Of a stretch of 32,000 nucleotides of DNA, positions 562 through 30,898 are shown piece by piece (the stretch's first letter is position 1; each line of letters starts with the position of its first letter). The DNA lies in contig OZ245049.1 in the NCBI GenBank assembly GCA_965224465.1, forward strand, positions 4,260,001 to 4,292,000, in the 5' to 3' direction. This stretch comes from Flavobacteriaceae bacterium (GTDB lineage: Bacteria > Bacteroidota > Bacteroidia > Flavobacteriales > Flavobacteriaceae). The translations under genes were made by a program, and so were the position numbers. Under the pieces are notes generated by a model. That model was not told the origin of the DNA. It was given only the letters and a program-made list of their open reading frames with translations, and did not search any database.

Positions 562-840
562 GTTGGTTTTATAGAGGTCAAATGTTGATTTTGATGAATG
601 TTCAAAAATACAAAAAAGGAGTGTAATAAGATAGTTTTGTCTTGGAATACCAAAACATTTCCATTGATGGTTTACAAATGAAATTACTTTGTTGAATTAT
701 GGAGGAGTGTTTATTACACAGAAAAATTCGCGCAGATTTTAATCTTAAATCTACGCGAATCGTTATTGTGTATTTTTAGTATAGAAGTAAATTCTCACTT
801 GTTTGTCATGTGTTTTCTATATGTATTATTTAAAAATAGA

Positions 841-8529: not shown

Positions 8530-9333
8530 TTAGAATAATTCTTTGAGGGCTTTTGCTACGCCATCGTTTTTATTAGTATCTGTTACCATGTTTGCAATTT
8601 CAAGCACTTGCGTTTGTGCATTGGCTACTGCAATACCCATTCCTACTGCTTCTAGCATTTCAATATCGTTAAAATTATCACCAAATGCAATAATTTCTTC
8701 CATGTTAATAGTACTGTATGTATGTGTTAGCAATACCTCTATAGCTGTTTTTTTAGAAATTGATTTGTGTGATATCTCTATATATGTAGGTTTGGAGCGG
8801 TACAAATGGACGTCGTCGGAATGATTTTTTTCTAAGTATTTGTAGAGCATATCAATCTCGTTTTCATCTCCCATACACATTATTTTATGAGCTCCTTTTT
8901 TTTCTTGAGTCCATCTGTGTATGACGTCCTCAGTAGATTTTACAATAGGGCTGACCTTGGTGTTATTCTCTTCTCTTTTTGCCCAAAAATCCATACTAGG
9001 AACATACCATTCGTCATTAAAATACAAGCTCAAATGCACACTGTTTTCTTTGCATTGATCTGCTATATTTTGAATCATAGTCGGAGAAATGAATGTTGAA
9101 TGAATAATTTGGTCATTCGCAATCACTAAACCACCATTATAGGCAATTAAAGGTGTAGATTCATTCTTTAAATCTCTTTGTAAGTGCTGCATTGCTGATG
9201 GCATACGCGATGAAATTAAAACAAAAGGAATGTGTGAAACACGTTGCACTTGTGCAATGGTATTTTGTGATAATTCTCTGTTTGCATTTAATAATGTTCC
9301 ATCAATGTCTGAACAGATTAATTTGTAGGCCAT
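8530..9333 (-). CDS. Cof-type HAD-IIB phosphatase
   Basis: 267 aa with HAD motif I (SDIDGTLL) and motif IV (FGDNFNDIEML), plus a cap region of typical Cof size. Confidence 0.85.
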   Translation of the reverse strand: MAYKLICSDIDGTLLNANRELSQNTIAQVQRVSHIPFVLISSRMPSAMQHLQRDLKNESTPLIAYNGGLVIANDQIIHSTFISPTMIQNIADQCKENSVHLSLYFNDEWYVPSMDFWAKREENNTKVSPIVKSTEDVIHRWTQEKKGAHKIMCMGDENEIDMLYKYLEKNHSDDVHLYRSKPTYIEISHKSISKKTAIEVLLTHTYSTINMEEIIAFGDNFNDIEMLEAVGMGIAVANAQTQVLEIANMVTDTNKNDGVAKALKELF

Positions 9334-9391
9334 GTTGTAGGTTGCTTTTTTGCAAAAGTACGGGTTTTAATTTAGGCAAAGCTATTTTATA

Positions 9392-9552
9392 ATACCAAAT
9401 ACATTCCCAAGTAACGGTTTAGAAATGGAATTATTTTATGTTTTAGCTAGGCGAAAAGTCTAAGGATAGCCTTCGCTATCGTTTTATTTTTCAACAACGC
9501 TAGAACGTAAAAGAAACTATTTATATCGATTATTTTGGATTGTAATTGGTGT
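9392..9552 (+). mobile_element. MITE-like 161-bp element, copy 1
   Basis: Terminal inverted repeats ATACCAAATACA ... TGTAATTGGTGT. Internal hairpins TAGCTAGGC/GCCTTCGCTA and CTATCGTT/AACGCTAG. No coding capacity. Confidence 0.8.
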
Positions 9553-9553
9553 A

Positions 9554-9714
9554 ACACCAAATACATTTCCAGATGACGGTTTAGAAATGGAATTATTTTA
9601 TGTTTTAGCTAGGCGAAAAGTCTAAGGATAGCCTTCGCTATCGTTCTATTTTTCAACAACGCTAGAACGTAAAAGAAACTATTTATATCGATTATTTCGG
9701 ATTGTAATTGGTGT
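9554..9714 (+). mobile_element. MITE-like 161-bp element, copy 2, head-to-tail with copy 1
   Basis: Starts 1 nt after copy 1 ends and has the same length. It differs from copy 1 by only a handful of substitutions. Confidence 0.8.
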
Positions 9715-10165
9715 AAAAGGGTTCTACTAAGAATGTTATGAGTGATAGGTTTCAGGAAAACTATTCTTAATGTTTTTCTAAATAATTACTTTGTCAATGC
9801 CTTCAAAACATTTAATCCTGGGTCGATTCGGTAATTCCCCGAGGCTCTGCCTCGTGCCTTTGGGTAGCGGTTGTTGGTTAGTTAGAATGTTCTTGATGAT
9901 TTTCAAGATCTCATTCATATTCAGTATCATTATTTAGGATACTCAAAACAAAAGGCTGTATTCTGAAACAAAGATTACTAAATTAATTTGTTCCAAGAAA
10001 AGAGCGCCTTTGAAAATAACACAGAAATATATGTTCTAAAAGTCTGATTTTATTTCGTTAGAAGCCTGAGCGGAGTCGAGGGGGAAGGATTCGTTCCTTT
10101 AAATTTAACTGTAATTGAATATTTATATACTCCAAATTTATTCTTTTACACTAGGGGTTAACACA

Positions 10166-10663
10166 TCAGAACTCTCGTATTAAATAAAGTGCTGCACATG
10201 CACGAGCATCAGATAGTGCCTCGTGATGTTTGAGCTCAATATTATCTACCATGCAGCATTCATTGAGCTTTCCTGAAGGATATTTCTCGTTTGCTTTGCA
10301 TAATTTCATGGTGCATTCCCAACGATCTGCAATATTAAGAGAATCATAATCGAGGTGATGGGCTGCCATGGTATTCTTTAGTACGCTACGGTCGAAAGAT
10401 TCGTTATGAGCAACTATAATTTTTCCTTGCAAGCGTTTTTTGATTTCAGGATAAATAGCAGCAAATGATTGTGCATTTTGAGTGTCTCTTTGAGTAATTC
10501 CGTGAACTTGGGTATTCCGCCAGTTGTATTCGTTGTTTGGTGGTTTTATAAGGGTATGAAACTCTTCTGTTATTTTTCCGTTTTCTACGGTTACAATACC
10601 TACGGCGCAGGCAGAATTCCTGAATGCTGTGGCGGTTTCAAAGTCTATGGTTGTGAAATTCAT
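10166..10663 (-). CDS. DEDDh 3'-5' exonuclease (DnaQ / Pol III epsilon-like domain)
   Basis: 165 aa with Exo I TIDFETA, Exo II VAHNESFD and Exo III HHEALSDA. Confidence 0.85.
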   Translation of the reverse strand: MNFTTIDFETATAFRNSACAVGIVTVENGKITEEFHTLIKPPNNEYNWRNTQVHGITQRDTQNAQSFAAIYPEIKKRLQGKIIVAHNESFDRSVLKNTMAAHHLDYDSLNIADRWECTMKLCKANEKYPSGKLNECCMVDNIELKHHEALSDARACAALYLIREF

Positions 10664-11076
10664 GTGTTTGTTTTTTTGAATGACTTTTTTATAACAATCA
10701 TAAGCAAAGGAAAGCTAAATATAGTCTTTTACGTTTTCCTAAGCATTGGTGTATTTGCGTATGGCGCAAGGTAAGGGACAAAGATGTATTTGTTAGTAAG
10801 AGAAAGGAGTATTTTTCATGTCTTAAGAAGGTTCATTGGATGTGAGCTGTATCAAATGGTTGAGTTTTTCTTCTTGATGGCGCTTGTATGGGTGAGATCC
10901 ACAACTAAATACGATTTTAATTCATGTACCGCTATATTTTTTAATTCCACTAGTGGGGTTTAATTCTCCGATGCTTGCAACGAAATTAGTAAGATTTTTT
11001 TCTTTTTCATGCCTCGTGGGCTTGCTCCGAGGTTATTGACTTTTTTTATAAAAAAAACAAAGCAAGATAGAGGCGT

Positions 11077-11238
11077 ATACCAATTACATTTCCATTGACG
11101 GTTAAGAAATGGAATTATTTTTTTTTAGCTAGGCGGGAAATGGAAGGATAGCCTTAGTTAATGTTTTGTTTTTCAACTAGGCTAGCACGGAAAGCAACCT
11201 ATTTATATCCGGGAGGGTAAAACTAAGTGATTGTAAGT
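11077..11238 (+). mobile_element. MITE-like element, diverged copy 3
   Basis: ATACCAATTACATTTCCATTGACGGTTAAGAAATGGAATTATTT...TAGCTAGGCGG...GGATAGCCTTAG...CTATTTATATCC aligns with copies 1, 2 and 4. The 3' TIR is degenerate (GATTGTAAGTTAAC). Confidence 0.6.
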
Positions 11239-11610
11239 TAACTCAATACTTGATTTAAGAGAATGTGAGGTATTTTATAAAAAAAATAATACTACAACAA
11301 TCTAGTACATACTCATGCTGGCGCTCTTTTTGTTTTATATCGCTGTATTTTTTAATTAATTTATTTGGTAAAAAGAAATTAAACTACTAATTTAGTGATA
11401 GATATGGCGATTTAGAATCTTATTCTTCTTTCCAAAATAAACGGTTATATAATATCTATGCTTCGTATTTTCTTTACGAAAGCTTTAAAAATTTCAGTTT
11501 TTTTGTTCGAGAATTTATTCTAAACGCACCATATAAAATCAAAATACTTTTATACTAGTAAAAAGGTGGATTGATTTTAAAAAAGAATTGCTAATTTAAA
11601 TAAAAAATTA

Positions 11611-12171
11611 ATGGGATCATTTAGAGCTCACCTAGAATTAGGTGGTACCAAATTTGATGTGCTTTTTTCAGAGTACACATTCAGTCGTTCAACAGACAAA
11701 AAAGGAAAAGTATCTTCCAATGTAATCGGAGGAAGAGTTACAGTAGAAATTGAATCAACAGAGGATACTTCAGTAATTGAAGCCATGTTAAACAGTCAAT
11801 TTAAATCTGTAGAAGGGAAATTAGTCTACAAAAAAACAGACGAAGATTCTAAAATGAAAGAAGTAGAATTTAAAAATGCCTACTTATACCAACCACATTT
11901 CCAAGTGACGGTTTAGAAATAGAATTATTTTTTGTTCTAGCTAGGCGGAAAATCTAAGGATAGCCTTAGCTATCGTTCTATTTTTTAACAACGATAGAAC
12001 AAAAAATAAACTATTTATATCGGTTATTTTGGATTGTAGTTGGTATTCATACATTTTACCGAAACTTTAGACGTAAACGGAGACATTCCAATGAAAATTA
12101 GATTTACAGTTTCAGCCGAAGAAATTATCATCGGAAATGCATCCATCGATAATCGTTGGCCAAAAGCATAA
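11611..12171 (+). pseudogene. tssD: T6SS-iii tube protein Hcp/TssD, interrupted by a MITE
   Basis: The 5' part is MGSFRAHLELGGTKFDVLFSEYTFSRSTDKKGKVSSNVIGGRVTVEIESTED...KMKEVEFKNAYL. The 3' part, in the same frame at 12046-12171, is FIHFTETLDVNGDIPMKIRFTVSAEEIIIGNASIDNRWPKA*. Joined, they give ~133 aa with the Bacteroidota TssD pattern as recalled, including the N.WP C-terminus. The intervening 161 bp carries many in-frame stops. Confidence 0.8.
11886..12046 (+). mobile_element. MITE-like element, copy 4, inserted in hcp/tssD
   Basis: TIRs ATACCAACCACA / TGTAGTTGGTAT, with a possible AT target duplication. Internal hairpins are retained, and CTATCGTT/AACGATAG is now perfectly paired. Confidence 0.8.
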
Positions 12172-12191
12172 TAGTACCCTAAAAATAGTTA

Positions 12192-12227
12192 AAAAAGGAG
12201 TGAGCAGTTGCTTTACTCCTTTTTTTG
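12192..12227 (+). terminator. rho-independent terminator after hcp
   Basis: AAAAAGGAGTGA-GCAGTTGC-TTACTCCTTTTTTT: a 7-bp stem with one G-U pair, followed by a T-run. Confidence 0.6.
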
Positions 12228-12354
12228 TATTGGGGATTGTTTGATTTTTGAATAAAAACGCACACTTTTCTACAGTATTAAATAACAAAAAACAAGAGGG
12301 ATCCCCATAGTTTTTCTAGCTTTAGTAATAAAAATAATTGCAAAAAAAAGAGAT

Positions 12355-14172
12355 ATGAGTGCACCAAAAACCAGCCTAAGTATAGACGGGAAAACCATTA
12401 CAAGTTTTACTAAAATATACTTAGTTCAAAAAATAAATGACCATCATTTTTTTGAAGTTATTTTAGACAATGATGTGGTAGAAGAAACTGGAGGACATAC
12501 GATAGATAAATCGAAGGGTTGGCTAGGGAAATCATTAATTATAACTTTTGGTACCGTCGATTTCTTAGGTTATATAAGCTCCATAAACCTTGAAAATAAG
12601 GATGGACATAATGGTGATTTAATCATAAAAGGATATTCGCCCACCATACTTTTACAAGGAGGAAAACAATTGTGTTCTTGGCGACAAAACACCTTAGAAG
12701 GTATTGTAAGACAAACCATGGGAGACTTACGAGTACCGTTACTCATAAAACCTACATTTAACGAAGTCATAGAATACCAAGTACAATACAACGAAAATAA
12801 TTATGATTTTTTACAGCGATTGGCAAAACAATACAACGAATGGTTTTATTATAACGGCGTACAATTAATATTTGGGAAACCACCCCAAGAAGAAGCTGTA
12901 GCAATCGAATACGGAAGAGACCTGTCCGAAATACAATTAGAAATAAAAATAAAGGATCACGGACAAACAAAATTTTCTTACAACGCTACCAATAACAGAT
13001 TAATAAGCACTTCGTCCAAGGATCAAGTAGCAGGATTAAACGAACTGGGCTCACATGCCTTTTATACCTCTTTGGAAACCTACAAAAACCCAAAAAATGG
13101 TTTCACCAATATTGAGACTGAAATGAAATCTCAAATAGACGATTTAGTGGCACGTAAACAAGCCACGCTAAGTGCAGGCTTGCATGTAATGAAAGGAAAA
13201 AGCACCAAACAGGGCTTAACCGTAGGAACTGTGATTAAGGTGAGATCTGCCAAGGTAGACGAGGAAACTAGCTTTGACATTAAAAATTATGGGGAGTATA
13301 TGATTACCAATATAAGCCACCATGCTACAGAACGTTCGGAATATTACAACACCTTTGAGGCGATTCCGTCTGGAATTGCAGTACTCGAAGAACCCAAGGT
13401 ATCCTTGCCCAAGGCATCAAACCAACTAGCCACGGTTATGTCTAATGCCGACCCCAGAGAAATGGGACGCGTACAAGTACGTTTTAATTGGCAAATACAC
13501 ACCATGAAAACTTCCTGGATACGTGTAATGACACCCGATGCTGGAAGCAGTAAAAACCATGCAAAAAATAGAGGACATGTTTTTATCCCCGAAGTAAACG
13601 ACCAGGTAATGGTAGGTTTTGAATACAACGATCCCAACCGACCCTTTGTGATGGGGAGTATGTTTCATAGTGAAAATGGCGCAGGAGGAAAACAAGACAA
13701 TAATATAAAATCCATCATTACTAAAAGTGGACATCGTATTGAGTTTAATGATACGCCGAGCAGTGAAAGTATTACCATTACGGATAAAAAAGGCAATCAT
13801 ATAATTATAGATACTAAAAATGAAACAATTAGTATCAATGCATTAAAGGATATTAATATTACTGCGGGAGAAAACATCAACATAAGCGCAGGTAAAAATA
13901 TTGTGGTAAATGCGGGAGAGAATATAGATGAGACGGCTGGACGGAATATATCTGTGGCTGCAGGGAAAGATATGATGTTAAATGCTGCAGGAGAAATGAC
14001 TGAAATTGCTGATAAACGTAAAGATCTAATAGATAAAGATTATAGCCGACAATCCAAAACTTCTGATGAGTATGCAAACCAAATTTCTTTATTTAGTGCG
14101 GCAGAAAACATGACTTTACAAAGTACAAAGACAGTTGTTATTAATAGTGCAGAAAAAAGTAAATTATTTTAA
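12355..14172 (+). CDS. vgrG: T6SS spike protein VgrG/TssI
   Basis: 605 aa. It has a gp27-like N-terminal part and a gp5/gpV OB-fold block (GRVQVRFNWQ...SWIRVMTPDAGS...GHVFIPEVNDQVMVGFEYNDPNRPFVMGSMFH). A C-terminal beta-helix repeat follows (ITAGENINISAGKNIVVNAGENIDETAGRNISVAAGKDM). Confidence 0.9.
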   Translation: MSAPKTSLSIDGKTITSFTKIYLVQKINDHHFFEVILDNDVVEETGGHTIDKSKGWLGKSLIITFGTVDFLGYISSINLENKDGHNGDLIIKGYSPTILLQGGKQLCSWRQNTLEGIVRQTMGDLRVPLLIKPTFNEVIEYQVQYNENNYDFLQRLAKQYNEWFYYNGVQLIFGKPPQEEAVAIEYGRDLSEIQLEIKIKDHGQTKFSYNATNNRLISTSSKDQVAGLNELGSHAFYTSLETYKNPKNGFTNIETEMKSQIDDLVARKQATLSAGLHVMKGKSTKQGLTVGTVIKVRSAKVDEETSFDIKNYGEYMITNISHHATERSEYYNTFEAIPSGIAVLEEPKVSLPKASNQLATVMSNADPREMGRVQVRFNWQIHTMKTSWIRVMTPDAGSSKNHAKNRGHVFIPEVNDQVMVGFEYNDPNRPFVMGSMFHSENGAGGKQDNNIKSIITKSGHRIEFNDTPSSESITITDKKGNHIIIDTKNETISINALKDINITAGENINISAGKNIVVNAGENIDETAGRNISVAAGKDMMLNAAGEMTEIADKRKDLIDKDYSRQSKTSDEYANQISLFSAAENMTLQSTKTVVINSAEKSKLF

Positions 14173-18552: not shown

Positions 18553-21222
18553 ATGCCAAAAGGAGTTAAAAAAATAAAGCTATACAAAGGAATGTACTAT
18601 CCGGACCAGTCGGCTTCATTAACCACGCAAGTTACTATACAGCCAGATCAGTTTGTCTCTTTTAAAGTAGAAGAATGGCTTCCGGACACTACGGAAGCTG
18701 AAAAAGAAGAAGGTGTATATTGGATGCGGCAATCACAAGATCGTAGAACAATTATATATAAAAATAAAGCTAAAGAGTATCAATTTAAAATAGGGAAAAA
18801 ATTATGTGGCCCTTATTCTTTTTATATAGAAGCGAGTAGGTCTGGAAACCGAGACTTTAAAAATAAAGCGGGTATATATGTAAGCGGATCTACAACAGCT
18901 CTTATAAAAGCGAGTGATTGGCGAAAAACAAAAAACGGAGAGGATATTAAAAATAGTGACCCTATAAAATATGGAGAACTAGTTTATTTATGGCTAGAAA
19001 CCGAAGGTCTAAACGGGGATGATGTAACAATTGAAATTTATAATAAAGCACTGGGAAGCGATGATTTAATTTTTACATACACAAATGTTACTATAGAAGA
19101 CGGGGAAGTGTTTCTTAAAATTGGAAATACTGCTTCTTGGATGGCTAAGGTTAATAACATAAGGGGAATAGAGAAATTTTGCATTAAAGTTAAGAAAGAT
19201 GGTAAATATATTCAAGACCATCTAGATGATGATATACATGCCGTATATCTTAATGTTAAAAAAGAATTAGCATCTGCTCAAACACTGCCTTCAGAAAATA
19301 TCACAGCTACTAAAGTGTTTAAAACTGAGGTAAATGCAGAACGCCACGACCCTTGCAGATTTACTGAAATTAAAGTAACTGAACTAAAAGAAAAAAACGG
19401 AAAATTAAAACCCATAACCATCTCTATTTTTAAGGATGGTCAAAAAAGAGAAGGACAAAGAATTATTAAGGAATATATAAACCGAATTATTAACTTTAAT
19501 TTTAATGATGCAAGTTTACGACCAGATGCTCAAAAAAAATTAAATAATATTTTAGGGTTTCTATTAGGGCATAAAGGAACAGAAATAACAATGAAAGGAC
19601 ACGCTTGTGTTATAGGTGATATAGATTTTAACAAATTACTATCGCAACAACGCAGCGATGCCGTTAAAGCTTTTTTTGTAAAAGGAGGTTTAGACGCTAG
19701 ACGAATGAATAGCTTAGGATTTGGAGAGTTTAATGTAGAAGAAGTTGATACTATTGCAAATAGAGACAAAGCCAGTTATATAAACTCACGTAAAGTGGAC
19801 GTATCCTTTACATTTGACGCCCATGATGCCAATACATTGGTTTATGAAACTGTAGCAGGAAGCGAAAAATATAGCACCGATTTAACGATTGATATTACAG
19901 ATTTTGATACAAAAGATTGCTTTAGAGATACAGATAAACACAATGAAAAAGTAATAATAGAAAGTGATGTAGCCAAAGAAGTAACCGCAAACGGAAAAAA
20001 AGGTATTTTATATCCCGTATTTTCTACGCTGCCAGACCAAAAAGATTTTTTTGATGCCAACTATTATGCTGCTTTAGAATATCTTTGGCCATCCAATGCA
20101 AAAAGTAATGAGTTTTATTTTTTCCTTAATTCGTGCCGGTATTATTCAAATAAAAAGAAAGCCACTCTTGTAGTAAAGACCTATCCAGATATAAAATGGA
20201 CACTGGCATTTGAATTAGCTATAAATATATCTCATAAGAAGTTTTCGAATATGCCAGAAGGAGCTATCTGGAATAAACATTGGAAAGATGCTCAGCCAGC
20301 AGGAGTTGCAAGAAGCCTTATTAATAGACGAAATAAAGAAGGAAAACTTACTCCAAAAGCTGGCGTACCAATTAAATGGGGGTTTGGTATTGAAGCGGAA
20401 TGGAATAAAAAGAATTCTAAACGTAAATTTAGTGCAGAAATAGAAAGTAAAATCAGGAAATTTACAGACACTGTAGAGGAAGTTGCAGGTGTACTAGACC
20501 AAGCCAGTGAATGGGGAAGAAATGCGGCCGAATTTACAGGATTACCAATTACATTTGATATTATATACCCTAAAGTTTCTTTTGGAATATCTTGGTATGC
20601 AGAAGGGGCTCAAAAAAACGGTAAACTAGCCACCGTTGGCGAAATTGGTTTTGCAGCAGATCCTTTAATTGGGGCAGTTGGCACTGTAGATTTAATTGCA
20701 GCAACCATATATGCCATCTCTATTGGAACAACAGGTAGTCCTGCTGTAGTAAAGCTATATAACAAGTTTACAGGGATTGCAGAAAACCTTGGTGCGAGTG
20801 TTGCCTTTGATGCTGTTTTTACAGGTGAATTGTTTATTAAATTTCCTAATTTACAAATACATAGTGTAAATGGTATTAAGCTTGACGGTGGGTTTGATCT
20901 TGGGGGAAAATTTACTATGGCTATAAGATTAGAAATTAGTATAGAAGTTGGTAAAATAGAATCTTCAAAAAAAGCTCCAATTATAAAAATAAGTGTATCT
21001 GCTATAATGCAAATAGGATTTGGTGGTTCGCTAAAGATTGATTCAGACAAATATGGCGTGTATATAATACCTAAAGTTGAGTTTTCGGGTGCAAAAATTG
21101 TAGCAGAAATTAAAGGAGAATTTGGCTGGTGGAGTTGGATGGGCGTCAGTTATACTCTAGAAGAAGTGATTATCGAGCCTAGTTCGTACACAATGGATAA
21201 AACATATATTTCAGGAAGTTAA
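18553..21222 (+). CDS. large putative T6SS effector: unknown N-terminal region, degenerate OmpA-like domain, Gly-rich amphipathic C-terminal domain (candidate membrane-active toxin)
   Basis: 889 aa. The OmpA_C-like block spans ~19480-19815 (FNFNDASLRPDAQKKLNNILGFLLGHKGTEITMKGHACVIGDIDFNKLLSQQRSDAVKAFFVKGGLDARRMNSLGFGE...NSRKVDVSF). The C-terminal ~250 aa are rich in G/A/I/V with alternating beta-like patterns (GAVGTVDLIAATIYAISIGTTGSPA...GFGGSLKIDSD...). Confidence 0.6.
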   Translation: MPKGVKKIKLYKGMYYPDQSASLTTQVTIQPDQFVSFKVEEWLPDTTEAEKEEGVYWMRQSQDRRTIIYKNKAKEYQFKIGKKLCGPYSFYIEASRSGNRDFKNKAGIYVSGSTTALIKASDWRKTKNGEDIKNSDPIKYGELVYLWLETEGLNGDDVTIEIYNKALGSDDLIFTYTNVTIEDGEVFLKIGNTASWMAKVNNIRGIEKFCIKVKKDGKYIQDHLDDDIHAVYLNVKKELASAQTLPSENITATKVFKTEVNAERHDPCRFTEIKVTELKEKNGKLKPITISIFKDGQKREGQRIIKEYINRIINFNFNDASLRPDAQKKLNNILGFLLGHKGTEITMKGHACVIGDIDFNKLLSQQRSDAVKAFFVKGGLDARRMNSLGFGEFNVEEVDTIANRDKASYINSRKVDVSFTFDAHDANTLVYETVAGSEKYSTDLTIDITDFDTKDCFRDTDKHNEKVIIESDVAKEVTANGKKGILYPVFSTLPDQKDFFDANYYAALEYLWPSNAKSNEFYFFLNSCRYYSNKKKATLVVKTYPDIKWTLAFELAINISHKKFSNMPEGAIWNKHWKDAQPAGVARSLINRRNKEGKLTPKAGVPIKWGFGIEAEWNKKNSKRKFSAEIESKIRKFTDTVEEVAGVLDQASEWGRNAAEFTGLPITFDIIYPKVSFGISWYAEGAQKNGKLATVGEIGFAADPLIGAVGTVDLIAATIYAISIGTTGSPAVVKLYNKFTGIAENLGASVAFDAVFTGELFIKFPNLQIHSVNGIKLDGGFDLGGKFTMAIRLEISIEVGKIESSKKAPIIKISVSAIMQIGFGGSLKIDSDKYGVYIIPKVEFSGAKIVAEIKGEFGWWSWMGVSYTLEEVIIEPSSYTMDKTYISGS

Positions 21223-21234
21223 AAAATAATAATT

Positions 21235-22095
21235 ATGAAAAACACAAAATTTGAAAAACCATATTACTCAATTTATGTTTACGAATTGAGTGCAGGTGAA
21301 ATATGGGTGAATGATGTGCCTCTTTTAAATTGGAAAGGACCACAAACTACGGATGGTGTGTATAATGGGAACATACCTATTAATCAAGTAGTATTACAGA
21401 ATGGTGTTTATGAGTTGAAGTGTATATTAAAGCCTCACTATGGTCAAAAAAAGTTGGTTAATACTATTGAGTCCTCTGTTTACACTATTGGGTTTCGTTG
21501 TAGACATGTAGATAATATAAAAAGTGGTATAAATGTAAATGGAGATGTTTATATTATGGAAAGACCTTATCAAAAGAGTTCTTCTGATTATAACTGGAAA
21601 GATCCCCTTATTAATTTAGAAGTGTATGTTGATGTGACGAAATTAACAATTACAGAACTCCCTTTTGTATTAGATGGTTGGCAAAACTCTGTAGATTTAT
21701 CTAAAATTAAAGAAAAGGTGCTGTTTCAAGAGGTTTTAGACTATTATCGCCAAATACATGCTATAATGGCTGCACACAATGCAACTAAGTTTTTAGAATT
21801 ATCTGAAGAAAAAATGAAACTGCAAGAACAAGCATTTTACTTTACCGAAGAGCGCAAAAAAAGCTTTAGAGCAGGAGCCATAAGTTTATTTAGTCAAAAA
21901 CTAGCGCCATTACCATTGGTTCCTTCAAATTTAAAATTACAAATTATGGGATATGGTAAATTAGTGCGCCTATTACAATTAGATGGGAGTGCTGCATTAC
22001 AATACGCAAGTCCAAAACCAGCGGAGCAAAGCAATATAGAGCTGGATGTAAAACTACACATGCGGAGTCAAGATAAAGGACTTAGTGTAATTTAA
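21235..22095 (+). CDS. 286-aa protein of unknown function, no signal peptide, paralogue A
   Basis: ORF lies 12 nt after the effector stop. It is paralogous to 22588..23448 and distantly to 30899..31675. Confidence 0.6.
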   Translation: MKNTKFEKPYYSIYVYELSAGEIWVNDVPLLNWKGPQTTDGVYNGNIPINQVVLQNGVYELKCILKPHYGQKKLVNTIESSVYTIGFRCRHVDNIKSGINVNGDVYIMERPYQKSSSDYNWKDPLINLEVYVDVTKLTITELPFVLDGWQNSVDLSKIKEKVLFQEVLDYYRQIHAIMAAHNATKFLELSEEKMKLQEQAFYFTEERKKSFRAGAISLFSQKLAPLPLVPSNLKLQIMGYGKLVRLLQLDGSAALQYASPKPAEQSNIELDVKLHMRSQDKGLSVI

Positions 22096-22106
22096 AACCT
22101 TATTTT

Positions 22107-22583
22107 ATGCAACGAAGAAACTTTATGAAAAACATAGCCATAAGTACAATTGGCATTTCATTTTCAGGAATTTTATTAAATTGCGCTGGAAAAGTAATGT
22201 ATTTGGATACTTTAATAGGACAAGCTGAGGATGTACTAAAAGGATTTGAAAAAGAAGGCGACAGCAATTTCTCCTATTATATTATTTCGAGTTTTGAGCA
22301 TTCTTTTTTTTCAGGGGATGTGGTTTTTGTTTTTTGTAAAAACAATACAATAGTTGGTTTTTCAGTGAAAAGAAACAATAATAAAGCAAGCAAAGAGATA
22401 GAAGCATTGTCAGAATTGTATGGTACTAAAAAAATAACCTACGAGAGTGACTTTGGAATAGAATACCAATGGAAAACAGCTGATAGAAGAATTTCTTTAA
22501 GCCATACTAAAACGTATAAAGACTTTCCTCAAAACACCTTCTATAGCGAAGCTTTATTAGATAGTAAACTGATTGTAGTGTAA
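22107..22583 (+). CDS. 158-aa lipoprotein with Tat-like signal, candidate immunity protein
   Basis: MQRRNFMKNIAISTIGISFSGILLNCAG carries a twin-arginine RRxF(L/M)K motif plus a lipobox-like LLNC. Confidence 0.6.
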   Translation: MQRRNFMKNIAISTIGISFSGILLNCAGKVMYLDTLIGQAEDVLKGFEKEGDSNFSYYIISSFEHSFFSGDVVFVFCKNNTIVGFSVKRNNNKASKEIEALSELYGTKKITYESDFGIEYQWKTADRRISLSHTKTYKDFPQNTFYSEALLDSKLIVV

Positions 22584-22587
22584 AATT

Positions 22588-23448
22588 ATGGAAAACACAA
22601 AATTTGAAAAACCATATTACTCAATTTATGTATATGAGCTTAGTGCAGGAGAAATTTGGGTGAATGATGTACCACTAGTTCGTTGGGTAGGACTTCAAAC
22701 GGCTGATGGTGACTATATTGGGGAAATACCAATCAATCAAGTTGTTTTAGAAAATGGAGAATATGAATTAGAATGTAAATTATTGCCTAGGTATGGTAAT
22801 AAACTTTTAGGAAATTCATCCTCTTACGATTTATATAACATCGCATTTCAATGTAGAGAAGTAAATGTTTTAAAAAGTAGTATTGTCTTTCATCCTGAAA
22901 TAGACACGCCCTCTTCTGGAAATTGGGATGAAAATAAGAAAAAATTTATTAGCGACGTATTTAATGATTTACCAGTATACATTTCAAAAACCAAATTTAA
23001 AATAACAGAACTCCCTTTTGTATTAGATGGTTGGCAAAACTCTGTAGATTTATCTAAAATTAAAGAAAAGGTGCTGTTTCAAGATGTTTTAGACTATTAT
23101 CGCCAAATACATGCTATAATGGCTGCACACAATGCAACTAAGTTTTTAGAAATATCTGAAGAAAAAATGAAACTGCAAGAACAAGCATTTTACTTTACCG
23201 AGGAGCGTAAAAAAAGCTTTAGAGCAGGAGCCATAAGTTTATTTAGTCAAAAACTAGCACCATTACCATTGGTTCCTTCAAATTTAAAATTGCAAATTAT
23301 GGGATATGGTAGATTAGTGCGCCTGTTGCAATTAGATGGGAGTGCTGCTTTACAATACGCAAGTCCAAAACCAGAAGAACAAAGCAATATAGAGTTGGAT
23401 GTAAAACTACACATGCGAAGTCAAGAAAAAGGATTTAGTATAATTTAA
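22588..23448 (+). CDS. 286-aa protein of unknown function, paralogue B
   Basis: The C-terminal half, from ITELPFVLDGWQNS onward, is almost identical to paralogue A at both nucleotide and protein level. The N-terminal half is much more diverged. Confidence 0.6.
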   Translation: MENTKFEKPYYSIYVYELSAGEIWVNDVPLVRWVGLQTADGDYIGEIPINQVVLENGEYELECKLLPRYGNKLLGNSSSYDLYNIAFQCREVNVLKSSIVFHPEIDTPSSGNWDENKKKFISDVFNDLPVYISKTKFKITELPFVLDGWQNSVDLSKIKEKVLFQDVLDYYRQIHAIMAAHNATKFLEISEEKMKLQEQAFYFTEERKKSFRAGAISLFSQKLAPLPLVPSNLKLQIMGYGRLVRLLQLDGSAALQYASPKPEEQSNIELDVKLHMRSQEKGFSII

Positions 23449-23533
23449 AGATTATTTTATGCAACGAAGAAACTTTATAAAAAATACAGCAATAGGTGTT
23501 ATCGGTATTTCTTTTTCAGGAATTCTATTAAAT

Positions 23534-24658
23534 CTTAAATTCAACTAATAAACGCAACTTTTCGATTTGATTCTATGATGGTTATATTTTCAAAACAGAA
23601 AAGTAGGAAAACCTACCTTTCTTGTCTTGATGGATATGTATCTTACGGTCTCAAATCTCGAAAAAAGAAGTTGTATGAAACACATCACCCAAGCGCAAAG
23701 ATACACAATTTGTTGCATGTTAAAACAAGGTTATAAACAGGTTGAGATAGCAGCTGCTATAGGAAAAGACAAGTCTGTTATTAGCAAAGAGATTAAGCGT
23801 AATTCAGACAAAAGAAATGGAGTTTACAAGCATGAATTAGCCCAAAAAAAGTATGCTAAACGTCATAAAGAAAAGCCTAAAAGAAAACGCTTTACAGAAG
23901 ATATTCAACAAGCAATAGAGTTGTTATTGCGAGACGATTATAGTCCTGAGCAAGTAGTTGGTGTCCTAAAAAAACAAGGTAAAGAAACGGTGTCTATTGA
24001 GCGTATATATCAGCATATTAGGGAAGACAAGAGGAATGATGGTGATTTACATACACACCTTCGCAGACAGGGAAGGAGATATAGAAAACGTGGCTCATCA
24101 AAGGATTCTAGAGGGGTTATAAAGAATCGTATTAGTATAGAACAACGCCCTGAAGTTGTTGAACAAAGAAATCGATTTGGAGATTTAGAGGTCGATTTAA
24201 TCATAGGTAAAAACCATAATCAAGCCATACTTACCGTAAATGATAGAGCTTCTGGAATGCTTAAAATGAAAAAAGTAAGCTCTAAAGAAGCAGTTGTTGT
24301 CACTAAAGCTATCAATGAAATATTAGAAGACTGGAAGCCTTATCTACATACTATAACAGCTGATAATGGAAAAGAATTTGCAGGCCATGAGCAGGTTGCA
24401 GAAAATTTATGTATTGATTACTTTTTTGCGCATCCATATCACTCTTGGGAAAGAGGATCTAACGAAAATTTAAATGGTTTGATTAGACAATATTTTGCCA
24501 AAGGAAGTGACTTTACAAACCTAACAGATCAAAGAATCAAAGAGGTAGAAACAAAATTAAATAACAGACCTAGGAAGAGACATAAATATCAAAACCCTAT
24601 ATTTGTAATGGAACAATTATTATTTAACTAAAAGTTGCGTTTGTGACTTGAATTCAGC
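23534..24658 (+). mobile_element. IS30-family insertion sequence
   Basis: ~1125 bp. Imperfect ~25-bp TIRs (AATTCAAsTmAyAAACGCAACTTTT). The 3-bp AAT is duplicated at 23531-23533 and 24659-24661. A single transposase ORF is present. Confidence 0.85.
23675..24631 (+). CDS. IS30-family DDE transposase
   Basis: N-terminal HTH MKHITQAQRYTICCMLKQGYKQVEIAAAIGKDKSVISKEIKRN. DDE region contains LEVDLIIG, ITADNGKEF and HPYHSWERGSNENLNGLIRQYF. The track ORF begins at a TTG at 23627; the ATG at 23675 is preferred. Confidence 0.9.
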   Translation: MKHITQAQRYTICCMLKQGYKQVEIAAAIGKDKSVISKEIKRNSDKRNGVYKHELAQKKYAKRHKEKPKRKRFTEDIQQAIELLLRDDYSPEQVVGVLKKQGKETVSIERIYQHIREDKRNDGDLHTHLRRQGRRYRKRGSSKDSRGVIKNRISIEQRPEVVEQRNRFGDLEVDLIIGKNHNQAILTVNDRASGMLKMKKVSSKEAVVVTKAINEILEDWKPYLHTITADNGKEFAGHEQVAENLCIDYFFAHPYHSWERGSNENLNGLIRQYFAKGSDFTNLTDQRIKEVETKLNNRPRKRHKYQNPIFVMEQLLFN

Positions 24659-25067
24659 AATTGCTCTGGAGAAGTAATGTCTTTAGATAATTTAATCGGG
24701 CAATCAGAAGATATACTAAAAGGGTATAACAAAGAAGGCGACAGCAATTTCTCCTATTATATTATTTCGAGTTTTGAACATTCTTTTTTTTCAGGGGAAA
24801 AAGTTTTTGTTTTTTGTGAAAACAATACAATAGTTGGTTTTTCGGTAAAAAGAAACAACAATAAAGCAAGCAAAGAAATAGAAGCATTGTCAGAATTATA
24901 TGGAACTAAAAAAATAACCTACGAGAGTGACTTTGGAATTGAATACCAATGGAAAACAGCTGCTAGAAGAATTTCTTTAAGCCATACCAAAACGTATAAA
25001 GACTTTCCTCAAAACACCTTCTATAGCGAAGCTTTACTAGATAGTAAACTGATTGTAGTGTAAAATT

Positions 25068-25139
25068 ATGGAAAACACAAAATTTGAAAAGCTCTTTTAC
25101 TCTGTTTATATTTATGGGTTGAGTGCAGGATCTAAGTAA
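25068..25139 (+). pseudogene. remnant (first 21 codons) of a third 286-aa family copy
   Basis: MENTKFEKLFYSVYIYGLSAG matches the paralogue N-termini. Homology stops at 25130, where sequence related to the effector gene begins. Confidence 0.75.
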
Positions 25140-26823
25140 ATCAATTGTCTCTTTTAAAGTAGAAGAATGGCTTCTGGGCACAACCGAAGCTGAAAAAAGA
25201 AGCGATGCTATAAAGGCTTTTTTTGCAAAAGGAAAACTAGATCCAGACCGTATTACATCTGTAGGTTATGGAGAAGCTAATCGTAAAGATAAGGATTCTT
25301 CCGCATTTATAAACGAAAAGGATTATATAGAGGCGAGGCGGGTAGATATTTCTTTTAACATTCCAGTGCATCAAGCAATAGTTTATGAAACTATTGCCCC
25401 AAGTCATAAAAAAAACATCACTATAGATGTTACGGATTTTGATACAAAAGATTGTTTTAGAGAAGCAAACAAGCATAAAGTAGAAATCCTGGTACTATCG
25501 GACAATGCAACAGAAAAAAACGGAGCTAACTCTTTAGAGTTCCCCATACAATCCACCTTGTCAGCAGCAAACCCAGCTCCTTTACAATATATCTGGCCAA
25601 AATACAACCTAATTAATCCAGAAAAAAGCATGGACGCTGCAGCAACCTATATTGCGCATATACATAGTTGTCGGTATTTTTTTAATGCTCATACCCCTAC
25701 AGTGGTTGTAAAAGCATATCCTGATATTAAGTGGGATTTTCACTTATTTTTAAATTTAAGTAATAGTTTGGCTGTGAAATCGCAAAACCTTTCTCCTGCA
25801 CAACATAAAAAAATGCAAAGTAATGCAGGGAAAATTGGCGCCGAAAAACGCTGGAAACAAACCGATATAGATTTTGGTGTTGTACTTGCCGCAAAATGGG
25901 ATAAAAACCCAACTACAAGTAATTATGGAAGTGAATTAGACCTCACATTAAAATGGGAAGATAAGATAAAACGTTTTTATCAGATTTTTTCTCAATTAAA
26001 AGAAGCTTCTAAAATAATAGCTGGAAAAACAAAAAGTACAGCTGGAAAAACAGTTGGTAAAAAATTTCCTTTAGACGTTGATGTTTTACCTCCTAATTTA
26101 TGTCTAGGTGTCGAATGGCAATTGGAAAGAGGTATAAAAAATAATAAAGAAAGTACAGAGTTAGGGACATTATTAAAGTTTTATTTTAAAGCAGAGCCAC
26201 TTCTAGGAATAGAGCTAACTTTTGATTTGTTAAATGCTGCTGTTACAGCCGTAGCAAGTCCAGCTGCGGCTTTAATTGTTTCAGAAATAAGAGATTGGCT
26301 AAAAGGTGATGATGATGAAAACAGACCACTATCAATCGATATATATCTTAATTTAGTTGTTTTTGGTACAATTCAAATCTCAGATTTATCATTACAATAC
26401 AACACCGCTTCTGATAGTACAGATCCAAAACAAAAAGCACAATTAGACGCATCTGCAACTGTAGGTTTAAAGATAGAAGCAGGCTTGGTTGTAAAAGCCA
26501 GATTAGTAGTAATAGTAGGCGAATTTTATGCACAAGCCTACGCTAAGTTTGAAGGTTTAGGCTCTATAACCTTTGGGCATAAGTTAGTACATCAAACTAG
26601 TAAATTATACTATAGACCTAAACTAATGTTTGATGGTGTCACGGCTAAGGTAGAAATTAAAGCGGAAATAGGACTTTTAATTAAAAAGGGATGGTTTGAA
26701 GGTGATTATAATAAAGATCTAGTAGATTTTAACGAAAAATATGAATTGTTTAAACCTTTTGACATCATTGAAGGCATAGAAAAATTAACAGGATTAAGTG
26801 CGAATATAACACTCTTAGGATAA
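25123..26823 (+). CDS. orphan effector cassette 1: 5'-truncated, internally deleted paralogue of the 889-aa effector
   Basis: Only a GTG start is available. SIVSFKVEEWLLGTTEAEK matches main-gene codons at ~18653-18705. The sequence then jumps in frame to RSDAIKAFFAKGKLD (main-gene 19651 onward), so about 315 codons are missing. The rest is collinear but diverged over the full C-terminal domain. Confidence 0.7.
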   Translation: MQDLSKSIVSFKVEEWLLGTTEAEKRSDAIKAFFAKGKLDPDRITSVGYGEANRKDKDSSAFINEKDYIEARRVDISFNIPVHQAIVYETIAPSHKKNITIDVTDFDTKDCFREANKHKVEILVLSDNATEKNGANSLEFPIQSTLSAANPAPLQYIWPKYNLINPEKSMDAAATYIAHIHSCRYFFNAHTPTVVVKAYPDIKWDFHLFLNLSNSLAVKSQNLSPAQHKKMQSNAGKIGAEKRWKQTDIDFGVVLAAKWDKNPTTSNYGSELDLTLKWEDKIKRFYQIFSQLKEASKIIAGKTKSTAGKTVGKKFPLDVDVLPPNLCLGVEWQLERGIKNNKESTELGTLLKFYFKAEPLLGIELTFDLLNAAVTAVASPAAALIVSEIRDWLKGDDDENRPLSIDIYLNLVVFGTIQISDLSLQYNTASDSTDPKQKAQLDASATVGLKIEAGLVVKARLVVIVGEFYAQAYAKFEGLGSITFGHKLVHQTSKLYYRPKLMFDGVTAKVEIKAEIGLLIKKGWFEGDYNKDLVDFNEKYELFKPFDIIEGIEKLTGLSANITLLG

Positions 26824-26881
26824 TATTTATAAAATGGATTATAATAATTAAAACGAACATGCTTAATAACAATTATAAAAA

Positions 26882-27475
26882 ATGAACAAACTATTTAAAA
26901 TATTTTTAATGGCTTCTATGATGCAAAGTTGTGGATCGCAAACAGATTTTGATTTAACGCAACTAACTCTAAAAGGAGAAAAAATTGGAGACTTTGTTAC
27001 AAAGGACATGACAAAACAGGTATACCCATTAGTCAATAAAACAGTTACAGATAAAGAATATATAATTGTCAAAAGTGATAAGTTGCTAAAATTTAATAGC
27101 ACAAATTTAATTGGACGTCAAAATCCAAATAGTCATAAATATGGTATAAATGGGGTGTCTTTTTATTATACTAAAGTAGATAGTATCATTTATAAATATA
27201 CAATTTCTATTTATTCTAAAAAACAAGCAAAAGACCTACTTAAGGCTTTATATGAAAAATTGGGTAAACCTAACTACACTAGCTATAGGAGTGCTGAAGA
27301 TAAAGAAAAGAATAATTTTAACGCCTTGCTATGGGAGGATACTGTAAATAATCACTTATATCAACTTCGATATGGTTTAAACGGTACAGTAAAGGCAAAT
27401 TTAGAAGTGAAAAATAACTCTACAAACATTCAAGAGTTAAATATAATCAGGGCAAACTCACACTTTAATGCTTAA
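26882..27475 (+). CDS. lipoprotein, candidate immunity for orphan 1; 3' end displaced by ISAs1 insertion
   Basis: Signal and lipobox are MNKLFKIFLMASMMQSC. The last 9 codons and the stop are supplied by IS sequence. The native continuation resumes at 28685 and ends at 28820 (GSFGYWEDFLYTRQQQKNLKYSYQEYLSERLKNDSNDFKNQLTK*). Confidence 0.65.
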   Translation: MNKLFKIFLMASMMQSCGSQTDFDLTQLTLKGEKIGDFVTKDMTKQVYPLVNKTVTDKEYIIVKSDKLLKFNSTNLIGRQNPNSHKYGINGVSFYYTKVDSIIYKYTISIYSKKQAKDLLKALYEKLGKPNYTSYRSAEDKEKNNFNALLWEDTVNNHLYQLRYGLNGTVKANLEVKNNSTNIQELNIIRANSHFNA

Positions 27476-28674: not shown

Positions 28675-28854
28675 TAAATATAATAGGTTCTTTTGGTTAT
28701 TGGGAAGATTTTCTATATACAAGGCAACAACAAAAAAATCTCAAATATTCTTATCAAGAATATCTGTCTGAACGATTGAAAAACGATTCAAATGATTTTA
28801 AGAATCAACTTACCAAATAGATAATCCCCAACTTAATAGATTGTTTTTTAAAAG

Positions 28855-28918
28855 CTTGTGAATTGTAGTCTGATTTCGATTTAACACAGCTCACTTTAAA
28901 AAGAGAAAAAGTTAATGG
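28855..28918 (+). pseudogene. fragment of a lipoprotein immunity gene N-terminus
   Basis: TGTGAATTGTAGTCTGATTTCGATTTAACACAGCTCACTTTAAAAAGAGAAAAAGTT aligns with 26925-26985 of the gene at 26882 (SC..DFDLTQLTLK). It has no start codon and contains a stop. Confidence 0.55.
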
Positions 28919-28934
28919 TAGTACAAAGTTTAAA

Positions 28935-29303: not shown

Positions 29304-29368
29304 TGTTCTTAAAGAACTAACTGGTAAAGAGGTTAAAATAATACTCATAAATTCATAAAAAAAACACA

Positions 29369-30868: not shown

Positions 30869-30898
30869 ATATCCAATTAAAACATTAAAAGAAGAGTT

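What the first reader, a model, noticed from the sequence alone, without database searches (positions are those of the whole stretch)
11611..12171. T6SS tube gene hcp/tssD split by a 161-bp MITE, with both halves left in the same reading frame
The element at 11886..12046 sits between ...EVEFKNAYL and FIHFTETLDVNG.... Both halves are in the frame with codon starts at positions congruent to 1 mod 3. The net insertion is therefore a multiple of 3, about 159 nt if AT is a target duplication. Removing it restores a ~133-aa TssD. The insert contains many in-frame stops, so the gene as written is inactive. Either this auxiliary hcp is dead, which fits the other decay in the island, or precise excision or population heterogeneity acts as an on/off switch for the cluster.
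Basis: seen in the sequence. Interest (0 to 1): 0.7.

Follow-up and report, generated by a model that had tools for sequence, protein, structure and literature searches.

The report
Small transposon splits spare Hcp gene
A 159-bp non-coding mobile element (a MITE) has jumped into one copy of the type VI secretion tube gene hcp/tssD in a marine Flavobacteriaceae genome and knocked it out; this is an ordinary kind of event, and the same chromosome keeps an intact, 96% identical copy of the gene.

Summary
ORFs 11611..11916 and 12040..12171 are two halves of one TssD/Hcp gene, in the same frame, separated by a hairpin-forming repeat.

The details need correcting:
- The element is 159 nt (11887..12045), not 161.
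- It is flanked by a 3-bp target duplication of the Leu92 codon (TTA at 11884-86, now TTC at 12046-48), not by AT.
- The net insertion is 162 nt, so the restored protein has 132 aa, like almost all homologues, not 133.
- Frame preservation is arithmetic (159+3 = 54 codons), not evidence of selection. All six frames of the element carry stops.

The element is a MITE family with a TWA target. The window holds five copies or fragments, including a tandem dimer TAA-A-TAA-B-TAA. Two copies lie in a Flavobacteriaceae MAG and one in a metagenome contig. No parent transposase was found.

Two orthologues show the empty site, TAC TTA GTA.

The 5.24-Mb contig that carries this window's VgrG and truncated Hcp also encodes an intact 132-aa Hcp that differs at 5 residues. 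The split gene is therefore a redundant auxiliary copy. It shows no other lesion, so the insertion is probably recent.

An excision-based on/off switch is neither supported nor testable here. This is a new member of a known kind, of low to moderate interest.

The parts
11611..11886 (+). hcp/tssD 5' part, codons 1-92 (ending ...KNAYL)
   Evidence: Pfam PF17642 profile positions 2-91, E = 4e-27. It is 91% identical in DNA to the orthologue in L003.
11884..11886 (+). Left copy of the target-site duplication, TTA (Leu92 codon)
   Evidence: Flank table of all copies. The empty-site orthologues read TAC TTA GTA.
11887..12045 (+). 159-bp MITE (TACCAACC...GTTGGTA), non-coding
   Evidence: nhmmer E = 8e-52 against the family profile. 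It is 88% identical to the copies at 9393-9551 and 9555-9713. All six frames carry stops. It folds as a long hairpin.
11887..11909 (+). Left terminal inverted repeat
   Evidence: Inverted repeat I1: 24-nt arms, 75% complementary. Terminal pairs are kept with compensatory changes among copies.
12023..12045 (+). Right terminal inverted repeat
11914..11916 (+). Premature stop (TAG) that ends the truncated product: 92 Hcp residues plus 9 element-encoded residues (YQPHFQVTV)
   Evidence: ORF list. The 101-aa product is identical to P0249.
11959..11984 (.). Central G+C-rich hairpin GATAGC-CTTA-GCTATC followed by a T-run; terminator-like on both strands in this copy
   Evidence: Terminator scan. This is the most conserved part of the family.
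12046..12048 (+). Right copy of the target-site duplication, now TTC (one mismatch to TTA)
12049..12171 (+). hcp/tssD 3' part, codons 93-132 plus stop (IHFTETL...RWPKA)
   Evidence: Pfam PF17642 profile positions 90-128. Alignment to the orthologue and gap-free alignment to PDB 9qwl.
12191..12226 (+). hcp's own intrinsic-terminator-like hairpin and U7 run, upstream of vgrG
   Evidence: Fold gives -16.5 kcal/mol, z = -5.5.
12355..14172 (+). Intact vgrG (605 aa) downstream
   Evidence: Pfam Phage_GPD, Phage_base_V and DUF2345. It has the same length as its homologues and is identical to P0242.
9390..9716 (+). Tandem dimer of the same MITE sharing target triplets: TAA-A(9393-9551)-TAA-B(9555-9713)-TAA
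11078..11211 (+). Copy of the MITE lacking its right end, about 400 bp upstream of hcp
   Evidence: nhmmer E = 4e-28, model positions 1-138; alignment.
648..691 (+). Solo left-end fragment of the MITE
   Evidence: nhmmer E = 0.005; repeat family D8.

Best explanation
A 159-bp non-autonomous DNA transposon (MITE) inserted into the TTA codon for Leu92 of an auxiliary hcp/tssD gene and duplicated that triplet. The element has imperfect terminal inverted repeats of about 24 bp. It inserts at TWA triplets and makes a 3-bp duplication.

Shown here:
- The insertion, its boundaries and its target duplication.
- The empty site in two orthologues.
- The stop codons in the element.
- The existence of the paralogue.

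Consequences. Translation now stops 9 codons into the element. The product is a 101-aa fragment lacking the last 40 residues of the Hcp fold, so this copy cannot build a tube. The downstream half stays in frame only because 159+3 = 162 is a multiple of three.

Context. The gene is the first gene of an hcp-vgrG-effector/immunity island that has no core T6SS genes in the window. The same 5.24-Mb contig encodes an intact 132-aa Hcp that differs at 5 residues.

Inferred, not shown:
- The loss is probably tolerated.
- The insertion is probably recent.
- A transposase encoded elsewhere mobilised the element. The type of that transposase is unknown; an IS5/PIF-Harbinger-like enzyme is a guess from the TWA duplication, recalled from memory.
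For: 1. One gene, two contiguous halves.
- Pfam TssD positions 2-91 and 90-128.
- The 132-aa reconstruction scores 136.5 bits over profile positions 2-128.
- It aligns without a gap to PDB 9qwl and 7yw0.
- It is 91% identical in DNA to the orthologue in L003 on both sides of the site.

2. Empty sites.
- L003 and L006 both read TAC TTA GTA exactly where the window reads TAC TTA [159 nt] TTC ATA.

3. Target duplication is direct, not inverted.
- L002 TAA/TAA; tandem dimer TAA-A-TAA-B-TAA; L004 TTA/TTA; hcp TTA/TTC.
- Only L001 fails, with AAA/TTA.

4. Repeat family.
- The window holds 3 full copies, 1 copy lacking its right end and 1 end fragment.
- Two copies lie in MAG NORP150 and one diverged copy lies in a metagenome contig.
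- The five close full copies are exactly 159 nt.

5. MITE anatomy.
- Terminal inverted repeats.
- A hairpin with z about -8.
- Compensatory changes at terminal pairs.
- Stops in all six frames.
- No Rfam match, even at E <= 1.

6. Redundancy.
- P0249 equals the window's 101-aa ORF and P0242 equals the window's VgrG.
- Both are recorded on one 5,241,564-bp contig that also carries the intact 132-aa Hcp P0248.

7. Little decay.
- dN/dS is 0.14 against the orthologue.
- There are no other stops or frameshifts.
- Only 2 residues are unseen in 114 homologues, and 34 of those 114 homologues have at least as many.

8. Auxiliary context.
- No core T6SS families were found among the window's ORFs.
- In relative L006, hcp-vgrG follows ClpV, TssN, TssO and TssR.
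Against: - No autonomous element with matching ends was found. The IS30-family and ISAs1-family elements in the window have unrelated inverted repeats, so mobilisation in trans is inferred.
- The hcp duplication is imperfect (TTA/TTC) and one copy (L001) has no matching flanks.
- Genome-wide copy number is unknown, because the source genome is hidden from the look-up tools.
- The family looks rare in public data. However, those scans required an exact 19-22-base core match.
- Loss of function and redundancy are deduced from sequence, not measured.
- The location of the intact paralogue, and whether it can serve this island's VgrG and effectors, is unknown.
Confidence: 0.85

Rival explanations
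1. Reversible switch. The hairpin-forming element, flanked by short direct repeats, is lost by precise excision (replication slippage or transposase action) in part of the population. That would restore a 132-aa Hcp and switch this auxiliary island on.
For: - Removing 162 nt restores an ORF that scores as a full TssD.
- The rest of the gene is undamaged.
- The element is a strong hairpin in DNA, -31.7 kcal/mol. From general knowledge of transposon precise excision, such hairpins favour slippage between flanking repeats.
Against: - The flanking repeats are only 3 bp and now differ (TTA against TTC), leaving 2 bp of identity.
- No excised allele of this locus could be examined.
- Frame preservation is arithmetic, not a sign of selection.
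- An intact paralogue exists on the same contig, which removes the need for a switch.
- Another gene in the island is split by an IS, which points to plain decay.
Confidence: 0.05
2. Domesticated regulatory module. The repeat is kept for a function of its conserved core, such as a bidirectional transcription terminator or a small RNA. In this reading, its presence in hcp serves to attenuate transcription into vgrG.
For: - The central hairpin GATAGC-CTTN-GCTATC with a T-run is called terminator-like in every full copy.
- It is the most conserved segment, even in the diverged copies L004 and 11078.
- Several stem positions are G-U pairs on the + strand only.
- All five window copies share one orientation.
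- Terminator-like MITEs are known, for example SPRITE (PMC10969869).
Against: - Core conservation is biased by how the copies were found, since the database patterns were taken from the core.
- hcp already has its own terminator downstream.
- A regulator would not need to sit inside a coding sequence and destroy it.
- There is no Rfam match.
- This reading does not conflict with a transposon origin.
Confidence: 0.05
3. Assembly or chimera artefact. The 162 bp were placed in hcp by misassembly of a dispersed repeat.
For: The element is repeated nearby, and repeats can confuse assemblers.
Against: - The insert is shorter than a sequencing read.
- It is flanked by the family's characteristic TWA triplet, placed exactly at a TTA that is present in the empty orthologous sites.
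- The hcp copy differs by 12% from the neighbouring copies, so it is not a collapsed duplicate.
- The source is a single 5.24-Mb contig.
Confidence: 0.02
4. The gene is still expressed across the insert, either by translational bypassing from the take-off codon TTA to a landing codon, or by RNA-level removal (a self-splicing element), or the two fragments assemble as a split protein.
For: - The duplicated triplet lies in phase with the reading frame on both sides of a strong hairpin. This superficially recalls bypass elements (own knowledge of T4 gene 60 and yeast mitochondrial byps).
Against: - The take-off and landing codons differ (TTA against TTC).
- The gap is 162 nt, against about 50 nt or less in known cases (own knowledge).
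- No stop codon directly follows the take-off codon.
- No intron or ribozyme family matches, even at E <= 1.
- The 3' ORF has only a TTG start inside the element.
Confidence: 0.01

Closest known systems
Prokaryotic MITEs in general (e.g. Correia elements of Neisseria, QMITEs of Coxiella, RUP/SPRITE of pneumococcus; review PMC10969869)
   Same: - Small (159 bp), AT-rich and non-coding.
- Terminal inverted repeats and a short target duplication.
- Stable stem-loop.
- Several copies, clustered and even adjacent to each other.
- A terminator-like core.
- Able to inactivate genes.

   Different: - The sequence matches no described family that I could find. Rfam gave nothing and two of the literature searches found no MITE described in Flavobacteriaceae or in an hcp gene.
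- The duplication is the 3-bp TWA rather than the TA of Correia elements (own knowledge) or the 7-9 bp of QMITE2.
- No parent IS is known.
Tourist-type MITEs / PIF-Harbinger and IS5-family elements with 3-bp duplications (own knowledge)
   Same: A 3-bp duplication of TAA or TTA (TWA) at every well-preserved copy.
   Different: - No transposase gene or IS with the same ends was available, so superfamily assignment rests on the duplication alone.
- The termini (TACCAA...) do not resemble the IS5-type ends I recall.
- The IS30 and IS3 families also make 2-5-bp duplications (own knowledge).
Rickettsia palindromic elements (RPEs), which insert in frame into genes and are translated (PMC10969869)
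   Same: A palindromic element of about 150 bp inside a protein-coding gene, with the downstream part left in frame.
   Different: RPEs are open in the host frame and give fusion proteins. This element has 1-8 stops in every frame of every copy, so it truncates the protein.
Bacteroidota T6SS (subtype iii) Hcp/TssD, e.g. PDB 9qwl, 7yw0
   Same: The reconstructed 132-aa protein aligns end to end, E = 4e-36, without gaps, and meets Pfam PF17642.
   Different: The gene here is interrupted. It sits in an island with vgrG, a DUF4280 (PAAR-like) protein and effector/immunity-like genes, but with no core apparatus genes.

Membership tests
MITE (miniature inverted-repeat transposable element) | Small size and no coding capacity | tested here: met
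   The element is 159 nt, and every one of the six frames has 1-8 stops in all five close copies.
MITE (miniature inverted-repeat transposable element) | Terminal inverted repeats | tested here: met
   24-nt arms, 75% complementary, in the hcp copy. Terminal pairs are kept across 7 copies, with two-sided changes at pairs 1/161, 2/160 and 7/155.
MITE (miniature inverted-repeat transposable element) | Target-site duplication flanking each insertion, absent from empty sites | tested here: met
   A 3-bp direct TWA repeat is perfect at 4 of 6 insertions, matches 2 of 3 bases at hcp and 1 of 3 at L001. The empty orthologous sites carry a single TTA.
MITE (miniature inverted-repeat transposable element) | Multiple dispersed copies with different flanks | tested here: met
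   Five copies or fragments in the window, two in MAG NORP150 on different contigs, and one in a metagenome contig. Genome-wide copy number could not be measured.
MITE (miniature inverted-repeat transposable element) | A cognate autonomous IS with the same ends that supplies transposase in trans | tested here: inconclusive
   None was found in the window or in loci L001-L006. The IS30-family and ISAs1-family elements in the window have unrelated ends. The rest of the genome is not readable here.
TssD/Hcp (Pfam PF17642) | Full-length match to the family profile | tested here: met
   After removal of 162 nt: 136.5 bits, profile positions 2-128 of 128, against a cut-off of 25.8.
TssD/Hcp (Pfam PF17642) | Uninterrupted ORF able to encode the whole fold | tested here: not met
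   The ORF ends at 11916 after 92 native residues. The last 40 residues, including the conserved NRWP motif, are separated from it.
IS5 / PIF-Harbinger-type elements | 3-bp TWA (TNA) target duplication | tested here: met
   That this feature is typical of those groups is from memory.
IS5 / PIF-Harbinger-type elements | Ends related to those of a DDE transposase-encoding member | not testable with these tools
   No IS reference library was available. The scans of the genome and metagenome collections were already used for the core pattern.
In-frame translated palindromic elements (RPE-like) | Element open in the host reading frame | tested here: not met
   There are 7 stops in the host frame of the hcp copy.
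Self-splicing introns / known structured RNAs | Match to a curated RNA family | tested here: not met
   No Rfam hit at gathering scores over the window, nor at E <= 1 over 9300-12250.
Programmed translational bypass (gene 60 / byp-like) | Identical take-off and landing codons, a short gap, and a stop after the take-off codon | tested here: not met
   The codons are TTA and TTC, the gap is 162 nt, and the next codon is TAC. The criteria themselves are from own knowledge.

The most novel reading that the evidence does not exclude
The insertion is a reversible lesion. The 159-bp hairpin, flanked by the duplicated Leu codon, is excised precisely at a useful frequency. In that case this auxiliary hcp-vgrG-effector island would be phase-variable within the population, a MITE-based on/off switch for a T6SS module in Bacteroidota.
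Probability: 0.04. Interest if true: 0.55.

Novelty: new member of a known kind. Interest (0 to 1): 0.25.

Why it matters
- **For annotation.** The locus should be marked as one hcp pseudogene interrupted by a mobile element, not as a 101-aa protein. The repeat defines a MITE family of marine Flavobacteriaceae that appears to be undescribed, with a clear TWA target and a fixed 159-bp length. Bacteroidota MITEs are little catalogued.
- **For biology.** It is an example of mobile-element erosion of an accessory T6SS effector island while a near-identical Hcp paralogue is retained. That bears on how such islands turn over.
- **Limits.** It does not open a new mechanism. Gene knock-out by a MITE is well known (PMC10969869).

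Tried and rejected
**Exact-protein look-ups.**
- Look-ups of the window's VgrG, its 101-aa Hcp fragment and its RNase T-like protein, and of P0121 and P0248, all returned nothing.
- The source genome appears to be hidden. No other alleles of this locus, genome-wide copy count or DNA of the paralogue's locus could be obtained.

**Database scans for the element.**
- Only 2 copies in the genome collection and 1 in metagenomes.
- None in viral contigs, plasmids or phages.
- The patterns needed an exact core, so diverged copies are missed.

- In tandem copy B the terminal dinucleotides are AC...GT. That is an inverted relation, so they belong to the repeat arms.
- Only the 3-bp TWA reading explains the 162-nt period of the dimer and the flanks of L002 and L004.

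**Other ideas that failed.**
- A 1008-aa ORF next to the L002 copy has the same length as the window's TPR protein but is unrelated.
- The IS30-family and ISAs1-family elements of the window were tested as possible parents and rejected on their ends.
- Rfam was searched at two thresholds with no hit.
- Literature searches found no described MITE in Flavobacteriaceae and no MITE-split hcp.
- The relatives' loci L005 and L006 hold no copy of the element.

Full report
**1. What is in the sequence**

The + strand carries an ORF at 11611..11916 (101 aa) and another at 12040..12171 (43 aa, TTG start). Both are in the frame with codon starts congruent to 1 mod 3.

Against Pfam TssD (PF17642), the first ORF covers profile positions 2-91 and the second covers 90-128. 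A join of the two covers 2-128 of 128 with E = 1e-37.

Between the halves lies a sequence with these properties:
- 24-nt inverted ends.
- It folds as one long hairpin on either strand. RNA: -54.4 and -50.4 kcal/mol, z about -7.8. DNA: -31.7 kcal/mol, z = -8.5.

**2.

Of the 120 homologues held, 103 are 132 aa long.

| Locus | Sequence at the site |
|---|---|
| L003, gene for P0001 (91% aa and nt identity) | TAC TTA GTA CAT |
| L006, MAG GCA_016764435.1 | TAC TTA GTA TAT |
| Window | TAC TTA [159 nt] TTC ATA CAT |

Removing 162 nt gives ...KNAYLIHFTETL..., 132 aa. This version scores 136.5 bits against the TssD profile, compared with 129.2 for the 133-aa join. It also aligns without a gap to solved Bacteroidales TssD structures 9qwl and 7yw0.

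The element is therefore 11887..12045 (159 nt). It is flanked by TTA (11884-86, the Leu92 codon) and TTC (12046-48), a 3-bp target duplication with one later change.

**3. The duplication rule holds for the family**

The same element occurs elsewhere, as found by nhmmer and the repeat finder:
- 9393-9551 and 9555-9713: 96% identical to each other, 88% to the hcp copy.
- 11078-11211: right end missing.
- 648-691: left-end fragment.

Public collections gave three more copies:
- Two 159-nt copies in a Flavobacteriaceae MAG, NORP150 (L001 and L002).
- One more diverged 161-nt copy in a metagenome contig (L004).

| Copy | Left flank | Right flank |
|---|---|---|
| L002 | TAA | TAA |
| L004 | TTA | TTA |
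| Tandem dimer | TAA-A-TAA-B-TAA | (period 162 = 159+3) |
| hcp | TTA | TTC |
| L001 | AAA | TTA |

The flanks are direct repeats, not inverted, so they are duplications and not extensions of the inverted ends.

In tandem copy B those positions read AC...GT, which is an inverted relation.

The dimer is what one expects if a second copy inserted into the TAA left beside the first copy.

**4. Classification**

The element meets the working definition of a prokaryotic MITE (features as summarised in PMC10969869):
- Small, AT-rich and without coding capacity: stops in all six frames of all copies.
- Inverted ends with compensatory changes among copies.
- A short target duplication.
- Several copies, locally clustered.
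- A stable stem-loop.

Its centre carries a 6-bp G+C-rich hairpin followed by a T-run. The simple scan calls this terminator-like in every full copy, and on both strands in the hcp copy.

No Rfam family matches, even at E <= 1.

The one defining feature I could not establish is a parent IS with the same ends. The IS30-family element (23.5-24.7 kb) and the ISAs1-family element (27.4-28.7 kb) in the window have unrelated inverted repeats.

A TWA 3-bp duplication recalls IS5/PIF-Harbinger-type transposases. That link is from memory and is only a lead.

**5. Why the halves are in frame**

159 + 3 = 162 = 54 codons. Any insertion of a full-length copy keeps the downstream frame. The five close copies are exactly 159 nt.

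The host frame of the hcp copy has 7 stops. This is not an RPE-like translated insertion, and the shared frame carries no functional message.

**6. Consequence for the gene**

Translation ends at TAG 11914-16, after 92 native residues and 9 element-encoded ones. The missing 40 residues include invariant positions of the family (P107, M108, S115-E117 and N128-P131 in the numbering). That this fragment cannot form the Hcp ring is an inference from the family's fold.

Otherwise the gene is clean:
- No other stop or frameshift.
- dN/dS 0.14 against the orthologue.
- Only two residues unseen among 114 homologues (K13T and K96T), and 34 of those 114 homologues have at least as many. T96 is shared with the paralogue P0248.

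The insertion therefore looks recent.

**7. Context and redundancy**

Order of features around the gene:
- Upstream are housekeeping-type genes: M28 peptidase, TPR protein, ABC ATPase, HAD hydrolase and an RNase T-like exonuclease.
- Then comes hcp and its own terminator hairpin (12191-12226).
- Then an intact vgrG of 605 aa.
- Then ORFs without family matches, a DUF4280 (PAAR-like) protein, an OmpA-domain protein and duplicated small ORFs typical of effector/immunity arrays.

No core T6SS gene is present in the window. In relative L006, hcp-vgrG directly follows ClpV, TssN, TssO and TssR. The window's locus is therefore an auxiliary island.

Cluster look-ups identify the source:
- The window's VgrG equals P0242.
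- The window's 101-aa fragment equals P0249.
- Both are recorded on one 5,241,564-bp contig.
- That contig also carries P0248, an intact 132-aa Hcp that differs from the reconstructed gene at 5 residues (...KNAYLVHFTETL...).
- It carries two further VgrG paralogues as well.

There is at least one, so the split copy is redundant at the sequence level.

**8. The switch hypothesis**

Nothing supports it beyond the fact that excision would restore the ORF. Points against it:
- The direct repeats are 3 bp, with only 2 bp still identical.
- A paralogue is present.
- A second gene of the island, a 158-aa paralogue at 23459..25063, is split by a 1125+3-bp IS30-family element. This points to ordinary erosion.

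I could not look for excised alleles. Every look-up touching the source genome returned nothing. I give the switch about 4-5%.

**9. Other rivals**

- **Artefact.** This is unlikely. The insert is shorter than a read. It sits exactly at a TTA that is present in the empty sites and carries the family's duplication. It differs by 12% from neighbouring copies.
- **Expression across the insert by bypassing or splicing.** This fails each criterion I could test: unequal flanking codons, a 162-nt gap, and no RNA family match.
- **A function for the conserved core (terminator or sRNA).** This remains possible and is compatible with a transposon origin. However, the apparent core conservation is biased by my search patterns.

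**10. Verdict**

This is an ordinary MITE knock-out of a spare hcp copy.

The MITE family itself seems undescribed (literature searches; Rfam). It is a new member of a known kind. Interest is 0.25.

Noticed in passing
window 9390-9716: Two copies of the MITE lie head to tail and share target triplets (TAA-A-TAA-B-TAA, period 162). This is as expected if the second copy inserted into the duplicated TAA beside the first. The two copies are 96% identical.
   Followed up: yes
window 648-691, 9393-9713, 11078-11211, 11887-12045: All five copies or fragments of the MITE in the window have the same orientation, and four of them lie within 2.7 kb just upstream of and inside hcp. Several stem positions are G-U pairs on the + strand only. 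No explanation was tested.
   Followed up: partly
window 11078-11231: This MITE copy keeps its left end and core but loses similarity after about 11211 (CTATTTATATC|CGGGAGGG...). It might mark the boundary of the hcp-vgrG island, or a deletion.
   Followed up: no
window 23459-25063: A 158-aa gene, paralogue of 22107..22583, is split by an IS30-family element (transposase ORF 23627..24631; inverted repeats 23538-62 and 24630-54). Removing 1128 nt (1125 + 3-bp AAT) restores a 158-aa ORF. This insertion also leaves the frame unchanged.
   Followed up: yes
window 27441-28681: An ISAs1-family element on the - strand (DDE_Tnp_1_assoc + DDE_Tnp_1, 371 aa), with 24-nt inverted repeats containing CAGGGCAAACTCA, sits inside the effector/immunity array.
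   Followed up: partly
window 18553-31675: The array downstream of vgrG is built of duplicated modules:
- 21235..22095 and 22588..23448, both 286 aa.
- 889-aa OmpA-domain ORF 18553..21222 and a shorter 566-aa relative at 25123..26823.
- 29409-29708 and 30110-30409, 96% identical.
These ORFs have no Pfam family.
   Followed up: no
window 11644-11655: hcp codons 12-15 read GGT ACC AAA TTT where the orthologue has GGA AAG GAA TTT. This is a cluster of 4 nucleotide changes in 6 positions. It replaces the almost invariant K13 (112 of 114 homologues) and creates TACCAAAT, the first 8 bases of the MITE in tandem copy A. It could be coincidence or the trace of an earlier event.
   Followed up: no
whole window / proteins P0242, P0248, P0249: The window's source is a 5,241,564-bp contig present in NCBI and ENA. 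Its proteins are in the protein collection, but look-ups of its DNA return nothing. Apparent rarity of the MITE in the genome scan therefore excludes the source genome itself.
   Followed up: partly
L001 7530-7538; L002 1264-1279; L004 3944-4258: The three copies found outside the window all sit at 3' ends of genes: 6 nt after a stop codon in L001, 13 nt from the end of a convergent ORF in L002, and between convergent genes in L004. This fits survival of insertions in terminator regions.
   Followed up: partly
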